Virus genome (UHGV): UHGV-0278805
Reading direction: 5' to 3' (one strand)
DNA from: a virus
Length of the DNA: 12,228 nt
In this document: positions 501 to 6,977 of the stretch, piece by piece
How the letters are laid out: every line of letters begins with the position of its first letter
Numbering within the stretch: position 1 is the stretch's first letter
The notes under the pieces: generated by a model
The model's input: only the letters and a program-made list of their open reading frames with translations
Databases searched by the model: none
Told to the model about the DNA's origin: nothing
Position numbers and translations under genes: made by a program

Positions 501-1496
501 GTGACCGTGAGAGCACTACTGACGCCTGAAATTGCCCCGCGTATGGGGATCGTATTGTTCAGGCCAGGTTCAGAGCTGATGCCCTTGTTTATGCAGGGGC
601 GTGTCCTGCTGGAGCCAGAGCCGGAACGTTATTCATCTTTCGCCAGTGGTGCCGTTCCGGCGGCATCACAACCGCTGGCGGATGATCCTGCCGTTCGGGC
701 CGTGTTCCGCAATGAGGCAGTGATCCGTCGTGCTGGTGGAGTGGAATGTCTTGAAAGCTGGTTACTTCGTGAAAAAGGCTGCCAATGGCCTCATTCCGAC
801 TGGCACAGCGAGAACATGACCACAATGCGACACGCGCCGGGCGCAATCCGTCTGTGCTGGCACTGCGATAACCAGCTGCGCGATCAGTTCACGGAACGGC
901 TGGAATCAATGGCAACGGATAACTGTGCCCGCTGGGTGTTATCTGTTGTGCGCCGTGATCTCGGTTTTGATGATAGTCACGTTGTAACAATGCCGGAACT
1001 GTGCTGGTGGCTGGTTCGTAATGACCTGGCTGATGCCTTACCGGAAAGTGCAGCCCGTAAGGCACTGAGATTACCTAAGCCTGTTGTGCCGTCTGTCACC
1101 CGGGAGAGTGACCTTGTTCCTTCGGTTCCTGCCACCAGCATTATCCAGGATAAAGCGAAAAAGGTGCTGGCGCTGAAAGTGGATCCAGAGTCGCCGGAGT
1201 CTTTTATGTTACGCCCAAAATGTCGCCGCTGGGTTAATGAAAAGTACACGCGCTGGGTTAAGACACAGCCGTGTGCATGTTGTGGAAAGCCTGCTGATGA
1301 TCCCCACCACCTGATAGGCCACGGTCAGGGTGGAATGGGTACAAAAGCGCATGACCTCTTTGTGTTGCCTTTGTGCAGAAAGCATCACGACGAGCTGCAT
1401 GCGGATACCGTGGCATTTGAAGAGAAGTATGGCTCCCAGCTGGAGCTGATATTTCGTTTTATCGATCGTGCGCTGGAAATAGGCGTGCTGGCCTGA
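501..1496 (+). CDS. DUF968/YdfU-like prophage protein with C-terminal HNH-like (His-Me finger) Cys/His cluster
   Basis: 331-aa ORF starting at GTG 501 (alternative in-frame GTG 507 and ATG 543). C-terminal segment CACCGKPADDPHHLIGHGQGGMGTKAHDLFVLPLCRKHHDELH has paired Cys and His-His spacing typical of HNH zinc-finger nucleases. Sits immediately upstream of Q, as YdfU-like genes do in E. coli lambdoid prophages (from memory). Confidence 0.7.
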   Translation: MTVRALLTPEIAPRMGIVLFRPGSELMPLFMQGRVLLEPEPERYSSFASGAVPAASQPLADDPAVRAVFRNEAVIRRAGGVECLESWLLREKGCQWPHSDWHSENMTTMRHAPGAIRLCWHCDNQLRDQFTERLESMATDNCARWVLSVVRRDLGFDDSHVVTMPELCWWLVRNDLADALPESAARKALRLPKPVVPSVTRESDLVPSVPATSIIQDKAKKVLALKVDPESPESFMLRPKCRRWVNEKYTRWVKTQPCACCGKPADDPHHLIGHGQGGMGTKAHDLFVLPLCRKHHDELHADTVAFEEKYGSQLELIFRFIDRALEIGVLA

Positions 1497-1513
1497 TTTT
1501 GTGGAGAAATTTG

Positions 1514-1879
1514 ATGCGTGATATTCAGATCATCCTTGAACGTTGGGGGGCATGGGCAGCTAGTGATAGCTCAGGAGTGGACTATTCGCCTATAGCTGCT
1601 GGGTTTAAGGGACTTCTTCCCTATACCAGTAAGGCACGCCAAGCTTGTTCAGATAATGATGCGCTAATTATTGAAAGTTGCTTGGAGCAACTAAAAAAAA
1701 GAAAACCTTATGAGCATTCTCTACTGGTTGCGCATTATTTGTACGGGTTTTCAAAGCGGAAGATTGCCAAAGTACAAGGAAAGGATGAGAAATTAATCCG
1801 TATAGAAATATTGTTAGCAGAGGGATTCATTGATGGTTGCCTTTCTACTCTCGATATTCATTTAGATATGGAGTTATAA
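1514..1879 (+). CDS. Q: Late-gene antitermination protein Q (phage 21/82-type, QuuD/QuuQ-like)
   Basis: ATG at 1514 preceded by GGAG at 1503-1506; stop TAA 1877-1879. Translation MRDIQIILERWGAWAA...IAAGFKGLL...LSTLDIHLDMEL closely resembles remembered DLP12/Qin Q-like antiterminators. The track start at 1499 is a TTG read-in; the ATG with an RBS is preferred. Confidence 0.8.
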   Translation: MRDIQIILERWGAWAASDSSGVDYSPIAAGFKGLLPYTSKARQACSDNDALIIESCLEQLKKRKPYEHSLLVAHYLYGFSKRKIAKVQGKDEKLIRIEILLAEGFIDGCLSTLDIHLDMEL

Positions 1880-1888
1880 TAAAAATAA

Positions 1889-1913
1889 CCCCGTAAACTT
1901 TATGTTTACGGGG
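1889..1913. terminator. Bidirectional intrinsic terminator between convergent Q and the TIR-like gene
   Basis: Perfect 10-bp stem CCCCGTAAAC (1889-1898) / GTTTACGGGG (1904-1913) with 5-nt loop, flanked by an A-run upstream (AATAAAAATAA) and a T-run downstream (TTATTTCTTTTTTTT), so it reads as a hairpin plus U-tract on either strand. Confidence 0.6.
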
Positions 1914-1918
1914 GAAGG

Positions 1919-2734
1919 TTATTTCTTTTTTTTATTACTTTCAGATAATCGTCGGTTTAATGTGTATTTTATTTGGTTCCTAATCATTTTTTCAGGAATG
2001 TCATATTTGTCTAAGAATGATATTATTTCATCCTCGTCAAGCAATCCATTCTTTATAATTTCATCTATCTGTTTTTGTAGATACCAAACATCCTTCTGTT
2101 CTACAGGAGTTAAATTCATATGGCTATTTATGGAGTTGATAGTAGCATCACGTTCAAGAACTCTAATCCTTTGATTTAATGAACGAGTGTTTTGTAATAT
2201 TTCAGATAAAAGATCTTGTTCAGTACGTGGTTTTACTTCTTCAGTTGGAGGGTATTGATCTAAAGCTCGTTTAAAATTTTTTTCAAATTGCTCCCAGTAT
2301 GTATTAAAAACTTGCTTTAGAATACGGTCATCTAAAGATTTATCGACAAGACAATTGTTTATTGTCCTTACTAATTCCCAAACACTCTCTTTATTTGGCG
2401 TTGTGTGATTGAATTGAGCAAGTGGATCTTTTAAATCTTCTGGTTTTAAGTCAATCAAGAATGTACAAACTTTATTTGTTGAAAGTCCTTTTGCTAGTGC
2501 TCCTGTTTCAAACAAAATCCATGGTTTATTTTTATTTTCTTGTGTCAAACATACAATGCCGACAGATACATCTTTTAATTTATCATTAATTTCAGAGAAC
2601 CATATAGCGCCACGATCAATATCTCTGGTTGAAATCCATGGCTGCGAAGCTTGGATAACACACTTCAGCCAGTCGCTAATAAGTTCTGCAACAGCTTGAC
2701 TTCTTTGCCCAGACCAACTTATGAACACTTTCAT
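1919..2734 (-). CDS. TIR-like domain protein with uncharacterised C-terminal helical/charged domain (candidate anti-phage defence or abortive-infection effector)
   Basis: Minus-strand ORF; preferred start is the ATG at 2734-2732 (MKVFISWSG...), preceded by GGAG 6 nt upstream on the coding strand; the track start at 2758 is a TTG. Stop TAA (plus-strand TTA 1919-1921). N-terminal ~120 aa carry TIR-like hallmarks: beta-A strand VFISWSG, then GIVCLTQEN and PWILFETGAL with a glutamate at the position of the catalytic Glu in NAD-cleaving TIR domains. C-terminal ~150 aa is K/E/D-rich with no motif I recognise. Gene is strongly AT-rich relative to its neighbours. Confidence 0.7.
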   Translation of the reverse strand: MKVFISWSGQRSQAVAELISDWLKCVIQASQPWISTRDIDRGAIWFSEINDKLKDVSVGIVCLTQENKNKPWILFETGALAKGLSTNKVCTFLIDLKPEDLKDPLAQFNHTTPNKESVWELVRTINNCLVDKSLDDRILKQVFNTYWEQFEKNFKRALDQYPPTEEVKPRTEQDLLSEILQNTRSLNQRIRVLERDATINSINSHMNLTPVEQKDVWYLQKQIDEIIKNGLLDEDEIISFLDKYDIPEKMIRNQIKYTLNRRLSESNKKKK

Positions 2735-2759
2735 TATGTACTCCATGTAATCACTCAAA

Positions 2760-2857
2760 AGGGACTGAAATTTACATTAAAAATTAAATAAAATCACTCA
2801 CGCGGTCCGCAGAAACCATTGTAATCTGTTATGAGTGGTTACTTCGCCACACAACTT
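2760..2857. promoter_or_regulatory. AT-rich intergenic region, candidate divergent promoter region (TIR-like gene leftward; possible phage late promoter pR'/qut rightward)
   Basis: About 100 bp of AT-rich DNA between the 5' end of the minus-strand TIR-like gene and a + strand terminator. A possible + strand -10 TAAAAT at 2789-2794 with a weak -35 CTGAAA at 2765-2770. Promoter hexamers are weak matches and are not experimentally anchored. Confidence 0.3.
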
Positions 2858-2884
2858 AAACCCGCCGTCGAGCGGGTTTTTTTG
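2858..2884 (+). terminator. Intrinsic terminator (candidate tR'-like terminator of a short late leader transcript)
   Basis: AAACCCGC (2858-2865) / GCGGGTTT (2872-2879) stem with 6-nt loop, followed by TTTTTGT; a classic GC stem plus U-tract on the + strand. Confidence 0.65.
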
Positions 2885-2981
2885 TACCTGTAAACCTGGT
2901 GCAGTACGGTAAACACGCTGGTGGTCGTGAATACTGACTTTTTATCTTGCTGGCTTTTTAGACAAGAGTTATTGGTATGTC

Positions 2982-3200
2982 ATGTTAACCAGAAGGAAAA
3001 AAGACATGCTAAAACAGCAAGATATGACAGAAACGGCGAAAGTTGTTTTTAATGAATTAAGCATCGAACCGGCAACAGTCGGGGAGATTGCACAAAACAC
3101 ATATCTTTCACGCGAACGCTGTCAGTTAATACTGACCCAGTTGGTTATGGCGGGGCTGGCAGATTACCAGTTCGGCTGTTACAGACGCCTTCAGCAATGA
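2982..3200 (+). CDS. Small helix-turn-helix-like protein of unknown function (possible regulator accompanying the methyltransferase)
   Basis: 72-aa ORF; alternative start ATG 3006 (MLKQQDMTETAK...) lies 9 nt after GAAGGA. Segment TVGEIAQNTYLSRERCQLILTQLVMAGL has the look of a recognition helix / winged-helix region. No strong family recognition. Confidence 0.45.
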   Translation: MLTRRKKDMLKQQDMTETAKVVFNELSIEPATVGEIAQNTYLSRERCQLILTQLVMAGLADYQFGCYRRLQQ

Positions 3201-3349
3201 AGGACTTTTAATTTGTGAAAATGGGCGGCTGGTGGGTGTTGGTAGCACCTGCCAGCCATTCGCTCATGCTTACTGGTCACAAGCGAACCACGGCCCACTG
3301 CTTTAGCGCAAAAGCAGAGTGAGCCTACCAGAGTTACGCTTACTGATCC

Positions 3350-4402
3350 ATGAAAAATACTGTAAAAATAAACAGTGTTGATTTAATCAACGCTGATTGC
3401 CTGCATTTTATTCAGTCCCTGCCTGATGATTCCATTGACCTGATTGTTACCGATCCGCCGTACTTCAAGGTGAAACCCAACGGCTGGGACAATCAGTGGA
3501 AAGGGGACGAAGATTACCTTAAGTGGCTGGACCACTGTCTGGCCCAGTTCTGGCGGGTGTTAAAACCTGCCGGAAGCCTTTACCTGTTCTGTGGGCATCG
3601 CTTGGCATCTGATATTGAGATCATGATGCGTGAACGTTTCAACGTGCTTAACCATATCATCTGGGCGAAGCCGTCCGGACGTTGGAATGGGTGTAATAAA
3701 GAAAGTCTGCGCGCATATTTTCCTGCCACAGAGCGCGTTCTGTTTGCTGAACATTACCAGGGGCCATATCGCGGCAAAAGTGACGGCTATGCGGCAAAAG
3801 AAAGGGAACTCAAACAGCACATAATGGCACCGCTGATATCGTATTTCAGGGATGCTCGTGCCGAACTGGGTATAACGGCAAAACAAATTGCCGAAGCCAC
3901 AGGTAAGAAAAATATGGTTTCCCACTGGTTTGGTGCCAGTCAGTGGCAGTTGCCGAATGAGGCTGACTATCGGAAGTTACAGGCACTGTTTTCCCGTATA
4001 GCGGCAGAGAAGTTTCAGGAACAACAACTGGAACAACCACACCACCAGCTGGTGGCATCTTATGATTCACTGAATCGCAAATATTCTGAATTGCTGGATG
4101 AGTTTAAATCTCTCCGGCGCTATTTCTCCGTATCAGTCTCCGTGCCTTATACCGATGTCTGGATGCATAAACCCGTTCAGTTCTACCCGGGTAAACATCC
4201 GTGTGAGAAACCTGCGGATATGCTCCGGCAAATAATCAATGCCAGTAGTCGACCTGGTGATCTGGTTGCTGATTTTTTTATGGGATCCGGTTCCACAATA
4301 AAAGCAGCAATGGCGCTGGGGCGTCGGGCCTTAGGTGTTGAGCTTGAGTCAGAGCGGTTTAACCAGACAGTGAAAGAGATAAACGAGCTGGTGGGGAAAT
4401 AA
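3350..4402 (+). CDS. Orphan DNA methyltransferase, beta-class N6-adenine/N4-cytosine type (YhdJ/CcrM-like architecture)
   Basis: 350-aa ORF. Motif IV DLIVTDPPY near the N-terminus and SAM-binding motif I DFFMGSGST near the C-terminus (beta-class order); HPCEKP segment parallels HPTQKP of remembered YhdJ-type enzymes. No adjacent restriction endonuclease candidate is present. Weak Shine-Dalgarno upstream of ATG 3350. Confidence 0.85.
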   Translation: MKNTVKINSVDLINADCLHFIQSLPDDSIDLIVTDPPYFKVKPNGWDNQWKGDEDYLKWLDHCLAQFWRVLKPAGSLYLFCGHRLASDIEIMMRERFNVLNHIIWAKPSGRWNGCNKESLRAYFPATERVLFAEHYQGPYRGKSDGYAAKERELKQHIMAPLISYFRDARAELGITAKQIAEATGKKNMVSHWFGASQWQLPNEADYRKLQALFSRIAAEKFQEQQLEQPHHQLVASYDSLNRKYSELLDEFKSLRRYFSVSVSVPYTDVWMHKPVQFYPGKHPCEKPADMLRQIINASSRPGDLVADFFMGSGSTIKAAMALGRRALGVELESERFNQTVKEINELVGK

Positions 4403-4408
4403 TCTGGT

Positions 4409-4433
4409 GGCCACGTAGGTGGCCTTTTTATTT
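4409..4433 (+). terminator. Intrinsic terminator downstream of the methyltransferase
   Basis: GGCCAC (4409-4414) / GTGGCC (4419-4424) stem with 4-nt loop GTAG, followed by TTTTTATTT, beginning 7 nt after the MTase stop codon. Confidence 0.5.
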
Positions 4434-4468
4434 CCATTACACAGCACCCGCATCTGCGAGGTGGGGTT

Positions 4469-4684
4469 ATGAAATCCATGGATAAGTTAACAACGGGTGT
4501 CGCCTATGGCACCTCAGCAGGTAGTGCCGGGTACTGGTTTTTACAGTTGCTCGATAAAGTCACGCCCTCACAGTGGGCGGCAATAGGTGTGCTGGGTAGT
4601 CTGGTATTTGGCTTGCTGACGTATCTGACAAACCTTTATTTCAAGATTAAAGAAGATAAGCGTAAGGCTGCGAGAGGTGAATAA
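4469..4684 (+). CDS. S: Pinholin/antiholin, phage 21 S21-like, with dual-start motif
   Basis: Translation [71 protein letters not shown] closely matches remembered phage 21 S. Two in-frame ATGs at 4469 and 4478 (Met1-Lys-Ser-Met4) correspond to the antiholin (71 aa) and holin (68 aa) starts. Two hydrophobic segments. Confidence 0.85.
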
Positions 4685-5181
4685 TGTCGCCATCATTACG
4701 CAAGGCTGTTGCTGCTGCTATTGGTGGTGGGGCTGTTGCCATAGCGTCTGTGCTCATCACTGGTCCGAGTGGTGACGATGGCCTGGAAGGTGTCAGCTAC
4801 ATACCATACAAAGATATCGTTGGCGTATGGACTGTATGTCACGGACACACCGGAAAAGACATCATGCTAGGTAAAACGTATACCGAAGCAGAATGCAAAG
4901 CCCTCCTGAATAAAGACCTTGCCACGGTCGCCAGACAAATTAACCCGTACATCAAAGTCGATATACCGGAAACAACGCGCGGCGCTCTTTACTCGTTCGT
5001 CTACAACGTGGGTGCTGGCAATTTCAGAACATCGACGCTTCTTCGCAAAATAAACCAGGGCGATATCAAAGGCGCATGTGACCAGCTACGTCGCTGGACA
5101 TACGCTGGCGGTAAGCAATGGAAAGGCCTGATGACTCGTCGTGAGATTGAGCGTGAAGTCTGTTTGTGGGGGCAACAATGA
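4684..5181 (+). CDS. R: SAR (signal-anchor-release) endolysin, lysozyme family, phage 21 R21-like
   Basis: ATG 4684 overlaps the holin stop (TAATG). N-terminal Gly/Ala-rich weakly hydrophobic segment [18 protein letters not shown] is typical of a SAR domain, followed by a lysozyme-like body ([22 protein letters not shown]...); near-identical to remembered R21. Confidence 0.85.
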
Positions 5182-5645
5182 GCAGAGTAACCGCGATTAT
5201 CTCCGCTCTGGTTATCTGCATCATCGTCTGCCTGTCGTGGGCGGTCAATCATTACCGTGATAACGCCATCGCCTACAAAGAACAGCGTGATAAAAAAGTC
5301 AGTGAGCTGAAGCAGGCGACCGCCACCATCGCTGACATGCAGCAGCGTCAGCGTGATGTTGCTGCGATCGATGCAAAATACACGAAGGAGTTAGCCGATG
5401 CGAAAACTGAAAATGAAACTCTGCGCGCTGATGTTGCCGCTGGTCGTAAGCGCCTGCGGGTCAATGCCAGTTGCTCCGCAGCCGTGCGTGAAGCCACCGG
5501 ACCCACCAGCATGGATAATGCAACCAGCCCCCGACTGGCAGACACCGCTGAACGGGATTATTTCACCCTCAGAGAACGGTTGATGACGATGCAGAAGCAA
5601 CTGGAAGGGGCGCAGGAATATATCCGCACCCAGCGCATTAAGTAG
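5178..5645 (+). CDS. Rz: Rz i-spanin (inner-membrane spanin)
   Basis: ATG 5178 overlaps the endolysin stop (ATGA). Translation [30 protein letters not shown]... has an N-terminal TM segment and a coiled-coil-like periplasmic domain, and is highly similar to remembered lambda Rz. The track start 5166 is an upstream read-in. Confidence 0.85.
5398..5583 (+). CDS. Rz1: Rz1 o-spanin (outer-membrane lipoprotein), nested in the +1 frame inside Rz
   Basis: ATG 5398 preceded by AAGGAG at 5384-5389; lipobox LVVSAC with Cys at residue 20; proline-rich mature part [32 protein letters not shown] matching remembered lambda Rz1. Entirely embedded within the Rz reading frame. Confidence 0.8.
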
Positions 5646-6482: not shown

Positions 6483-6977
6483 ATGGATCGAGAGTTAAAA
6501 AATCTGACGCTGAATATCAGTCAACTGGCGGCACTGTCAGGTGTACATCGCCAGACTGCTGCGGCAAGGCTGCAAAATCTACCCGTTGCAGGGGGGCATG
6601 AAAGCAACCTCAAGCTTTATCGGGTGGTTGATATTGTGTCGGCATTTCTGGCATTACCACCGCCGGTTGCAGAAGGCGAAATGGACGCGCATGAGCGCAA
6701 AGCCTGGTATCAGTCTGAACGTGAGCGTCTTAAGTTCGAACAGGAAACGGCGCAACTCATTCCGGCCAGTGATGTCAGACGGGAGTTTGCCATCTGGGCA
6801 AAAGCGGTCGTGCAGGTGCTGGAGACATTACCGGATATTCTGGAACGTGACTGCGGTCTGCAGCCTGCCGCTGTGAGCCGTGTTCAGTCCATTATTGATG
6901 ATCTGCGCGATCAGATAGCCCTGCGGGTGACCGAAGCAGGTGCGGATGATGAGGAGGAATTACAGCAGGAGGAGTAA
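6483..6977 (+). CDS. Terminase small subunit (Nu1/gp1-like, DNA-recognition subunit)
   Basis: ATG 6483 preceded by GGAGCGAG; N-terminal HTH-like segment NISQLAALSGVHRQTAAARL; acidic C-terminus; stop overlaps the large-subunit start (TAATG at 6975-6979); lies immediately downstream of the cos-like region. Confidence 0.75.
   Translation: MDRELKNLTLNISQLAALSGVHRQTAAARLQNLPVAGGHESNLKLYRVVDIVSAFLALPPPVAEGEMDAHERKAWYQSERERLKFEQETAQLIPASDVRREFAIWAKAVVQVLETLPDILERDCGLQPAAVSRVQSIIDDLRDQIALRVTEAGADDEEELQQEE

What the first reader, a model, noticed from the sequence alone, without database searches (positions are those of the whole stretch)
2760..2884. Candidate pR'/qut-tR' unit displaced from Q by the TIR insertion
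In lambda-like phages the Q-dependent late promoter, qut site and tR' terminator follow Q directly. Here the first + strand terminator after Q lies about 980 bp downstream, beyond the TIR-like gene, preceded by a possible -10 TAAAAT (2789-2794). If this is pR'/tR', the same ~100-bp AT-rich region also has to drive the divergent TIR-like gene, which would couple expression of the cargo gene to late-promoter occupancy.
Basis: inference. Interest (0 to 1): 0.45.

Follow-up and report, generated by a model that had tools for sequence, protein, structure and literature searches.

The report
Late promoter unit displaced by cargo
This ~95-base stretch is very probably the prophage's Q-controlled late-gene promoter and its terminator, separated from the Q gene by an inserted, oppositely oriented TIR defence-type gene; relatives, including E. 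coli K-12's DLP12 prophage, show the same layout, so it is an ordinary kind of element in an under-described arrangement.

Summary
The observed features are real. The first + strand intrinsic terminator after Q is at 2858-2883, 979 bp past the Q stop and beyond a low-GC, minus-strand TIR gene.

The core interpretation holds. Window ~2788-2883 is a conserved module that lies 1-12 nt after the Q stop in insert-free relatives. It lies 0.7-2.2 kb away in 72 of 83 loci of this Q clade.

It is homologous from -12 to +48 to the late promoter of Stx phage Sp5, whose start site was mapped by dRNA-seq.

Two details are corrected:
- By homology and conservation, the -10 is TAATCT at 2822-2827, with T-12, A-11 and T-7 near-invariant and -10/-8 free to vary. 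The start is about A2834 and the RNA about 48-50 nt.

A 9-bp palindrome, GCGGTCCGC (2802-2810, centred at -28), accompanies this Q clade. Other Q clades carry other palindromes in the same register, so it is the likely Q-binding element. That is inferred, not shown.

The pause element is unresolved. Coupling of TIR expression to the late promoter is untested, and the TIR promoter is only weakly predictable.

Verdict: a new member of a known kind, with two wider leads: palindromic Q sites and a cargo hotspot between Q and its promoter.

The parts
1514..1879 (+). Q antiterminator gene (121 aa from the ATG; RefSeq calls the TTG at 1511). It belongs to the Q21/Q933W family.
   Evidence: Pfam PF06530, E 8e-49. 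Weak sequence match to the solved Q21 structures 6P18/6JNX. 42% identical to Sp5 Q and 24% to Q21.
1880..2785 (-). Inserted cargo cassette. It holds a minus-strand terminator (1913-1889), the TIR gene (1919-2734) and its 5' leader/promoter region (2735 to ~2785). The right boundary is approximate.
   Evidence: GC ~0.30. Terminator. TIR_2. PADLOC TIR-TM, 1e-57. Homology to other loci of the Q clade resumes at about 2785-2790.
2789..2793 (+). It is a possible proximal UP-element subsite.
   Evidence: Columns 28-32 are A-rich in most of 63 distinct sequences, although the DNA further upstream is unrelated cargo. The UP-element reading is inference from the known consensus.
2802..2810 (.). Palindrome GCGGTCCGC, centred at -28. 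Candidate Q-binding element (QBE).
   Evidence: Within one mismatch, present downstream of Q in 83 of 83 loci of this Q clade. Only one exact copy in the window. Other Q clades carry other palindromes in the same register, and the class follows the Q clade.
2822..2827 (+). Predicted sigma-70 -10 hexamer, TAATCT.
   Evidence: It aligns with TATCAT of Sp5, 7 nt upstream of the mapped start. Over 56 distinct sequences: T-12 in 48, A-11 in 55, T-7 in 56; -10 and -8 vary freely, -9 is mostly T (45).
2834..2834 (+). Predicted transcription start (A), by homology.
   Evidence: The Sp5 dRNA-seq start lies 258 nt before the Term-seq 3' end, and the RNase E motif GU|AUU is at +173. Both map to the A before GTGGTTAC in L006. 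The spacing is identical in the window.
2835..2850 (+). 5' hairpin of the short RNA (GUGGU...GCCAC, +2..+17). Its role is unknown.
   Evidence: Present in the MFE and centroid fold. The inverted repeat is kept in most relatives, and some keep a hairpin through a shifted register. Covariation is weak.
2858..2883 (+). Intrinsic terminator (tR' candidate): stem 2858-2865/2872-2879, T-run 2877-2883.
   Evidence: 66 of 89 distinct relatives have a hairpin (dG <= -7) plus a T-run ending at +41..+60, with 48 different hairpin sequences. It is positionally homologous to the terminator annotated after Q in SfV.
2982..4402 (+). First genes downstream of the unit: a small winged-helix-like ORF (2982-3200) and a DNA methylase (3350-4402).
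   Evidence: Pfam. The same gene pair follows the terminator in SfV, phiP27, cdtI and others.
4409..4432 (+). Second, strong + strand terminator just before the holin gene. Q-modified polymerase would also have to pass it.
   Evidence: The holin, endolysin and Rz genes follow at 4469-5645.

Best explanation
Window ~2788-2883 is the late promoter/terminator module (pR'-QBE-tR') served by the Q protein encoded at 1514-1879.

Proposed mechanism:
- RNA polymerase with sigma-70 starts at about A2834, using the -10 TAATCT (2822-2827) and probably the A-tract at about -45. There is no good -35.
- Without Q, polymerase makes a 48-50-nt RNA with a 5' hairpin and stops at the terminator (2858-2883).
- After induction, Q binds the palindrome GCGGTCCGC (-32..-24) and loads onto the early elongating polymerase, as shown for the homologous Q21.
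- The modified polymerase then reads through this terminator and the one at 4409-4432 into the methylase, lysis and head genes.

The TIR cassette (1880 to ~2785) was inserted between the Q stop and the promoter's A-tract, on the opposite strand and with its own terminator. It therefore lies outside the late operon and can be expressed in the lysogen.

Shown here: position, homology, the conservation pattern and the terminator structure. Inferred: start site, Q binding to the palindrome, pausing and read-through.
For: 1. Adjacency. The same module begins 1-12 nt after the Q stop in 11 insert-free loci. It begins 693-2223 nt after it in 72 loci with about 40 different gap lengths. The window's 1400-2880 is 99.5-100% identical in 25 listed E. 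coli genomes (3 at 100%). Homology then breaks inside the terminator's T-run. In one of these genomes a lambda-type holin follows about 250 bp later.

2. Homology to a mapped promoter. Sp5 -12..+48 aligns without gaps to window 2822-2881. The Sp5 start site, 3' end and RNase E site from Sy et al. 2020 all fit that register.

3. A -10 signature. T-12, A-11 and T-7 are near-invariant; -10 and -8 vary freely, -9 is mostly T. There are 16 different hexamers in 56 distinct sequences.

4. The palindrome tracks the Q clade. Six palindrome classes, all centred at -27.5/-28, occur in 221 loci with 151 distinct Q proteins. Median Q identity is 72-81% within a class and 43-56% between classes. The nearest-neighbour Q has the same class in 140 of 149 cases. 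The -12..+48 part is shared between classes.

5. Terminator.

6. Family precedent. The annotated phage 21 record shows the Q stop, then -35 / QBE / -10 / start / pause element / terminator within 91 bp, and a ~50-nt RNA. The QBE lies between -35 and -10 in Q21.

7. K-12 DLP12 has the same layout: quuD, nmpC on the minus strand, the element, then essD.
Against: - No transcript data exist for this prophage. The start site is transferred from a phage whose Q is only 42% identical.
- The -35 is poor: CTCACG-type hexamers sit at 19-bp spacing, against 16 bp in Sp5.
- No convincing sigma-dependent pause element is present. The only conserved -10-like hexamer near the start is AAGAGT at -3..+3. It overlaps the start, and in this window it reads ATGAGT, losing the key A.
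- In Sp5 the homologous first hairpin does not stop all transcription: a 258-nt RNA ending at a second terminator was mapped. The window's terminator may therefore be leaky.
- Co-inheritance of Q and palindrome could partly reflect linkage rather than function.
Confidence: 0.75

Rival explanations
1. The promoter uses TAAAAT (2789-2794) as its -10 and starts at about 2801. The palindrome and the TAATCT hexamer then lie in the transcribed region, TAATCT acting as the sigma-dependent pause element about 12 bp downstream of the Q site, a spacing similar to phage 21.
For: - TAAAAT with CTGAAA at 18 bp is the best + strand consensus match in the region (9/12).
- The gap from palindrome to TAnnnT (11 bp) resembles the gap from QBE to pause element in phage 21 (12 bp).
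- Conservation of only T, A and T fits a pause element as well as it fits a -10.
Against: - The A-rich stretch gives no -10 hexamer in a fixed register across relatives. Its -35 would lie in unrelated cargo DNA in each lineage.
- The mapped Sp5 start is 7 nt downstream of the TAnnnT hexamer, not upstream of it.
- A pause at about +35 would leave RNA already outside the exit channel. That fits poorly with the Q21 nozzle, through which the RNA is threaded.
Confidence: 0.1
2. The module is mainly a small-RNA gene, or a constitutive promoter for the downstream winged-helix ORF and methylase, and is not under Q control. Its association with Q is only genomic linkage.
For: - The homologous Sp5 transcript gives the regulatory sRNA StxS.
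- The 5' hairpin and the first 25 nt are strongly conserved.
- No pause element could be identified.
Against: - The module also directly precedes holin genes where no methylase or winged-helix ORF is present (DLP12).
- The palindrome class follows the Q clade across unrelated cargo and across at least four downstream region types.
- An sRNA role would add to the late-promoter role rather than replace it, as in Sp5.
- Rfam has no match.
Confidence: 0.1
3. The late promoter lies elsewhere: at the Q stop codon (TCGATA-18-TATAAT, 1851-1880), in 3200-3349, or before the holin. On this reading 2858-2883 is just a terminator that insulates the cargo.
For: The 1851-1880 site is the best consensus match in 1400-4700 (10/12, perfect TATAAT).
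Against: - A promoter at 1851-1880 would read antisense through the whole TIR gene.
- It lies in the Q 3' end, which differs between relatives with different cargo.
- Neither the Q-linked palindrome nor the conserved start region recurs convincingly elsewhere in the window (only a 1-mismatch GCGGTCTGCA at 6853 and 3-mismatch, chance-level matches).
- The terminator stays with the promoter element whatever the cargo.
Confidence: 0.05

Closest known systems
Phage 21 late regulatory unit (pR'21, QBE, sigma-dependent pause element, tR'). Q21 structures: Yin et al. 2019, Shi et al. 2019.
   Same: Same Q protein family (PF06530). A Q site lies between the -35 and -10 positions. The terminated RNA is very short (~50 nt). 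The unit lies between Q and the lysis genes.
   Different: - The Q21 site is a direct repeat (ATTGAGCA AATGAGCA, -27..-12). Here it would be a 9-bp inverted repeat centred at -28.
- Phage 21 has a good -35 (TTGACA) and a clear pause element (TAAGCT, +2..+7). Neither is evident here.
- In phage 21 the unit starts 7 bp after Q. Here it is about 920 bp away.
pR' / StxS / tR' of Stx phages Sp5 (VT2-Sakai) and 933W
   Same: Homologous sequence from the -10 through +48, including GTGGTTAC..GCCAC and the first hairpin with its T-run. The Q is a 42% identical homologue. The start site is experimentally mapped.
   Different: - The palindrome is TTTACGATCGTAAA rather than GCGGTCCGC.
- The -35 has 16-bp spacing.
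- The mapped RNA runs to a second terminator at +258.
- No cargo lies between Q and the promoter in Sp5, although other members of that Q clade have gaps of 39-1591 nt.
E. coli K-12 DLP12: quuD - nmpC - late element - essD. From general knowledge, the lc porin gene of phage PA-2 is comparable.
   Same: A reverse-oriented lysogenic-conversion gene sits between Q and the same type of element: palindrome, TATGCT, GTTAAGA|GTGGTTAC, terminator. Lysis genes follow.
   Different: The cargo is a porin (IS5-disrupted in K-12), not a TIR protein. The palindrome class is TTTACGTACGTAAA.
Lambda pR' / qut / 6S RNA / tR'
   Same: Same regulatory logic: a constitutive promoter, an early terminator, and Q loading at a promoter-embedded site.
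   Different: Unrelated Q family (PF03589). A different site and a -35-like element are required. The RNA is 194 nt (general knowledge). The unit is adjacent to Q.

Membership tests
Q-dependent late promoter unit (pR'-QBE-pause element-tR') of the Q21/Q933W family | Lies downstream of a cognate Q gene on the same strand and upstream of the lysis/late genes | tested here: met
   Q is at 1514-1879 and the unit at ~2788-2883. The methylase follows, then holin, endolysin and Rz at 4469-5645. The unit is adjacent to Q in insert-free relatives.
Q-dependent late promoter unit (pR'-QBE-pause element-tR') of the Q21/Q933W family | A sigma-70 promoter that fires without Q | tested here: inconclusive
   The -10 signature TAnnnT is conserved in register and aligns with the -10 of the mapped Sp5 start. 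The -35 is poor. No transcript data exist for this element.
Q-dependent late promoter unit (pR'-QBE-pause element-tR') of the Q21/Q933W family | A Q-binding element embedded between the -35 and -10 positions and specific to the cognate Q | tested here: inconclusive
   The palindrome at -32..-24 is present (<=1 mismatch) in 83/83 loci of the clade. Its class follows the Q clade in 221 loci. Binding was not tested. The symmetry differs from the direct repeat of Q21.
Q-dependent late promoter unit (pR'-QBE-pause element-tR') of the Q21/Q933W family | A -10-like sigma-dependent pause element in the initially transcribed region | tested here: inconclusive
   The only conserved candidate is AAGAGT at -3..+3, which reads ATGAGT in the window. 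Sp5 has TACATT at +7..+12, but the window has TACTTC.
Q-dependent late promoter unit (pR'-QBE-pause element-tR') of the Q21/Q933W family | An intrinsic terminator a short distance downstream of the start | tested here: met
   The hairpin and T7 run lie at +25..+50. A terminator-like hairpin ends at +41..+60 in 66 of 89 distinct relatives, with 48 different sequences.
Q-dependent late promoter unit (pR'-QBE-pause element-tR') of the Q21/Q933W family | Q-dependent read-through of the terminator | not testable with these tools
   Needs in vitro transcription or reporter assays with and without Q.
Moron / lysogenic-conversion cargo cassette | Foreign composition, its own terminator (and presumably promoter), present or absent between conserved flanks, outside the phage operon logic | tested here: met
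   GC is 0.30 against ~0.52. It has its own minus-strand terminator. Insert-free and alternative-cargo relatives exist. Its promoter is only weakly predicted.

The most novel reading that the evidence does not exclude
Two linked readings remain open.

1. In the Q933W-like branch of the Q21 family, Q may recognise an inverted repeat centred at -28, with at least six specificity classes. That would mean a two-fold symmetric binding mode, unlike the tandem direct-repeat mode solved for Q21.

2. The few base pairs between the Q stop and this site may be a dedicated slot for cargo. In this clade it is occupied in 87% of loci, the largest ORF is antisense in 96% of occupied loci, and it often holds defence-type genes. 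Such cargo would be expressed in the lysogen and could be silenced by converging early transcription on induction.
Probability: 0.35. Interest if true: 0.6.

Novelty: new member of a known kind. Interest (0 to 1): 0.45.

Why it matters
- Annotation. Annotation pipelines and readers expect the late promoter immediately after Q. In this Q clade it usually is not there. Knowing the signature (palindrome at -28, then 11 bp, TAnnnT, GTTAAGA|GTGG, hairpin, terminator) lets the late promoter be placed in hundreds of enterobacterial prophages, including Stx phages and K-12 DLP12.
- Cargo expression. The signature tells which cargo genes are outside the late operon (expressed in lysogens) and which are inside it (Q-dependent, like stx).
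- Q specificity. If the palindrome classes are Q-binding sites, they give a ready-made specificity code for Q proteins. They also offer a contrast to the solved Q21-DNA complex.
- Defence discovery. The gap between Q and the promoter holds many uncharacterised candidate defence genes.

Tried and rejected
- Rfam, whole window at E <= 1: no RNA family.
- An outer helix TTAAG/CTTAA around the 5' hairpin, which would have implied an upstream start: mostly invariant columns, with 3 compensatory against 8 or more disruptive changes. Rejected as evidence.
- Covariation in the GTGG/CCAC hairpin: weak. A second group keeps a hairpin only by a register shift, so its role is left open.
- Search for a pause element in +1..+25: nothing conserved with A at position 2 and T at position 6.
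- Second copies of the palindrome or start motif in the window, including 3200-3349: none.
- Minus-strand promoter for TIR: only 7/12-level matches.
- Literature: no description found of a Q933W-type Q-binding element or of a hotspot between Q and pR'. Plunkett et al. 1999 is not held. The DLP12 paper gives no start site.
- Sakai coordinates: the paper's coordinates differ from NC_002695.2 by an offset I could not look up. I anchored the start using the 258-nt length, the T-run end and the GU|AUU site at +173. All three agree.

Full report
**What is in the sequence**

The window is the late-control region of a lambdoid prophage.
- A DUF968/HNH gene lies at 501-1496.
- A Q antiterminator gene of Pfam family PF06530 lies at 1514-1879.
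- A TIR gene lies on the minus strand at 1919-2734. It matches Pfam TIR_2 and PADLOC TIR-TM at E 1e-57.
- The TIR gene sits in ~30% GC DNA between ~52% GC flanks. It has its own minus-strand terminator at 1913-1889.
- A 247-bp intergenic region follows (2735-2981).
- After that come a small winged-helix-like ORF (2982-3200), a DNA methylase (3350-4402) and a strong terminator (4409-4424).
- An S21-type holin, an endolysin, Rz and the terminase genes follow.

- The first + strand terminator after Q is at 2858-2879 with a T-run to 2883, which is 979 bp after the Q stop.
- The predicted RNA folds far better than shuffles (z = -3.9).
- TAAAAT is at 2789-2794, but promoter-like hits are no more frequent here than in shuffled sequence.

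**The unit normally abuts Q**

- BLAST against phage records shows that window ~2779-2990 directly follows a homologous Q gene in PPyecE_EH1910 and several Stx2a phages.
- Phage cdtI (Q 82% identical) has two different minus-strand genes in the same place.
- E. coli CUPF06 has a KAP-family NTPase there.
- I collected 83 loci with Q 66-100% identical to the window's (IMG/VR plus two others).
- Every one carries GCGGTCCGCA (at most one mismatch) downstream of Q.
- In 11 loci it lies 1-12 nt after the stop codon. In 72 loci it lies 693-2223 nt away, with about 40 different gap lengths.
- The gap ORFs fall into 25 clusters. In 69 of 72 loci the largest ORF is on the minus strand.
- Several gap ORFs match defence models: TIR-TM, PDC-S20, PDC-S42, PDC-M68A, an OLD/AriA-like ATPase, and PD-Lambda-1 in phiP27.
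- In complete E. coli genomes, window 1400-2880 occurs at 99.5-100% identity in 25 listed strains (3 at 100%).
- In those strains homology breaks inside the terminator's T-run. In strain 268.2 a lambda-type holin follows about 250 bp later.
- So Q, cargo and promoter-terminator travel together, and the terminator is a mosaic junction.

**Homology to a mapped late promoter**

- The sequence after the Q gene of Stx2 phage VT2-Sakai (Sp5) aligns without gaps to window 2822-2887. The Sp5 sequence is ...TATCATGATAAGAGTGGTTACATTGCCACGCAGTCGAACCCGCCGATGCGCGGGTTTTTTTGTACC.
- Sy et al. 2020 mapped the Sp5 pR' start by dRNA-seq, 258 nt upstream of the Term-seq 3' end. They placed an RNase E site (GU|AUU) at +173.
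- In the Sp5 sequence, the end of the second terminator's T-run (L006:949) minus 257 gives position 692. That is the A just before GTGGTTAC.
- GUAUU then falls at +172..+176. The three landmarks agree.
- The -10 is therefore TATCAT in Sp5.
- By register, the window's -10 is TAATCT (2822-2827) and the start is A2834. This gives a 48-50-nt RNA.

**Conservation supports that -10**

- Over 56 distinct sequences of the clade, T-12 occurs in 48, A-11 in 55 and T-7 in 56.
- Position -10 is A19/T13/C13/G11, and position -8 is also free.
- There are 16 different hexamers.
- This is the sigma-70 -10 pattern.
- From -6 to +6 the sequence (GTTAAGAGTGGT) is almost invariant.
- The spacing between palindrome and hexamer is fixed at 11 bp, with one exception.
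- Upstream, only an A-tract at about -45..-41 is conserved, although the DNA beyond it is unrelated cargo.
I read it as a possible UP-element subsite, which is inference.
- The -35 position is occupied by the palindrome's left half and matches the consensus poorly.

**The palindrome as the likely Q site**

- GCGGTCCGC spans -32..-24.
- The Q933W clade (80 loci) has TTTACG(AT/TA)CGTAAA in the same register. Gaps between Q and the element there range from 21 nt (no insert) to 1591 nt.
- phiP27 has GGAATTCC.
- A scan of one genome per species found the same architecture in Yersinia, Xenorhabdus, Photorhabdus, Providencia, Erwinia, Pantoea and others.
- That scan added the classes GCGTACGC, TTCGT(A/T)ACGAA and TGTAATTACA, all centred at -27.5/-28.
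- Over 221 loci and 151 distinct Q proteins, median Q identity is 72-81% within a class and 43-56% between classes.
- The nearest-neighbour Q has the same class in 140 of 149 cases. Most exceptions are one-base variants of GCGGTCCGC.
- The part from -12 to +48 is shared between classes, and the region downstream of the terminator comes in at least four types.
- The palindrome is therefore the piece that stays matched to Q.
- In phage 21 the Q site lies between -35 and -10, so the position fits. The symmetry does not, because Q21 uses a direct repeat.
- Binding is inferred, not shown. Linkage could contribute to the association.

**The terminator**

- The stem is 2858-2865/2872-2879 with seven T.
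- A hairpin plus T-run ends at +41..+60 in 66 of 89 distinct relatives by a strict test. There are 48 different hairpin sequences, and several of the failures are near misses.
- SfV, Stx2c phages and Ayreon carry a different, larger Q protein and a different promoter region.
- They nevertheless share this terminator and the DNA downstream of it.
- Caveat: in Sp5 the homologous first hairpin lets at least part of transcription through, since a 258-nt RNA was mapped.

**What remains open**

- No clear sigma-dependent pause element was found. AAGAGT at -3..+3 is conserved as AAnnnT, but it overlaps the start and reads ATGAGT in the window.
- The 5' hairpin (+2..+17) is conserved, but its role is unknown.
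- The TIR promoter is only weakly predicted: TAAATT at 2774-2769 with GTGATT at 2797-2792. That -35 would overlap the pR' A-tract.
- A back-to-back layout is therefore likely, but coupling is untested.

**Comparison and novelty**

- The unit is a member of the known class of Q-dependent late promoter/terminator cassettes. Its closest relatives are those of phage 21 and the Stx phages.
- The displaced layout is also present in E. coli K-12 DLP12: quuD, nmpC on the minus strand, TTTACGTACGTAAA, TATGCT, GTTAAGA|GTGGTTAC, a terminator, then essD. It is therefore not new in nature.
- I found no description of the layout, or of a palindromic Q site, in the held literature.
- Verdict: a new member of a known kind. 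The -10 assignment is corrected by 33 bp, and the coupling idea is left untested.

Noticed in passing
window 1880-2785, and loci L014-L093, L010, L003, L012, L013: The few bases between the Q stop and the late-promoter palindrome act as a cargo hotspot. It is occupied in 72 of 83 loci of this Q clade, by 25 ORF clusters, with the largest ORF on the minus strand in 69 of 72. Cargo includes TIR-TM, KAP NTPase (PDC-S20), PDC-S42, an HNH protein (PDC-M68A) and an OLD/AriA-like ATPase. phiP27 (Q 54% identical, outside this clade) carries PD-Lambda-1 on the + strand in the same gap. Many others have no match.
   Followed up: partly
window 2747-2771 versus 2818-2842: A 25-nt inverted repeat (72% complementary). 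The TIR gene's leader, read on its own strand, resembles a degenerate copy of the late-promoter core (-16..+9), including GAGTGATTAC against GAGTGGTTAC. By eye, the one other cargo junction I inspected (KAP NTPase, L010) lacks it.
   Followed up: no
window 1851-1880: TCGATA-18-TATAAT (10/12, perfect -10) overlaps the Q stop codon on the + strand. If active, it would transcribe antisense through the TIR gene.
   Followed up: no
window 2877-2883: Homology to many E. coli prophages ends inside the terminator's T-run. At least four unrelated late-region types follow the same promoter-terminator module, so the terminator is a recombination junction.
   Followed up: partly
L177 (NC_000913.3 573000-579500), 4195-4280: E. 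coli K-12 DLP12 carries the same element between nmpC and essD, with palindrome TTTACGTACGTAAA and -10 TATGCT. The predicted start is NC_000913.3:577,229. Public K-12 TSS data could test this.
   Followed up: partly
L006 (VT2-Sakai) 717-741: The Sp5 late transcript contains a terminator-like hairpin and T-run at +25..+48, homologous to the window's. The published StxS RNA nevertheless runs to +258. Either this hairpin is leaky or a ~48-nt RNA escaped detection.
   Followed up: no
window 3201-3349: A 150-nt non-coding stretch between the winged-helix ORF and the methylase. It has no Rfam match and no copy of the Q-linked motifs. Its function is unknown.
   Followed up: no
L180, L182, L190: Genome bins labelled Bacillus, Actinomycetes and Vagococcus carry this enterobacterial Q module at 62-81% Q identity. 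These are probably contaminated bins or assemblies.
   Followed up: no
L004 (Stx2c phage) 826-849 and 1501-1525; L005 (Ayreon): In phages with the larger SfV/82-like Q protein, a lipoprotein gene is inserted downstream of the first terminator, and the terminator is duplicated on both sides of it. Cargo there lies inside the late operon rather than before the promoter.
   Followed up: no
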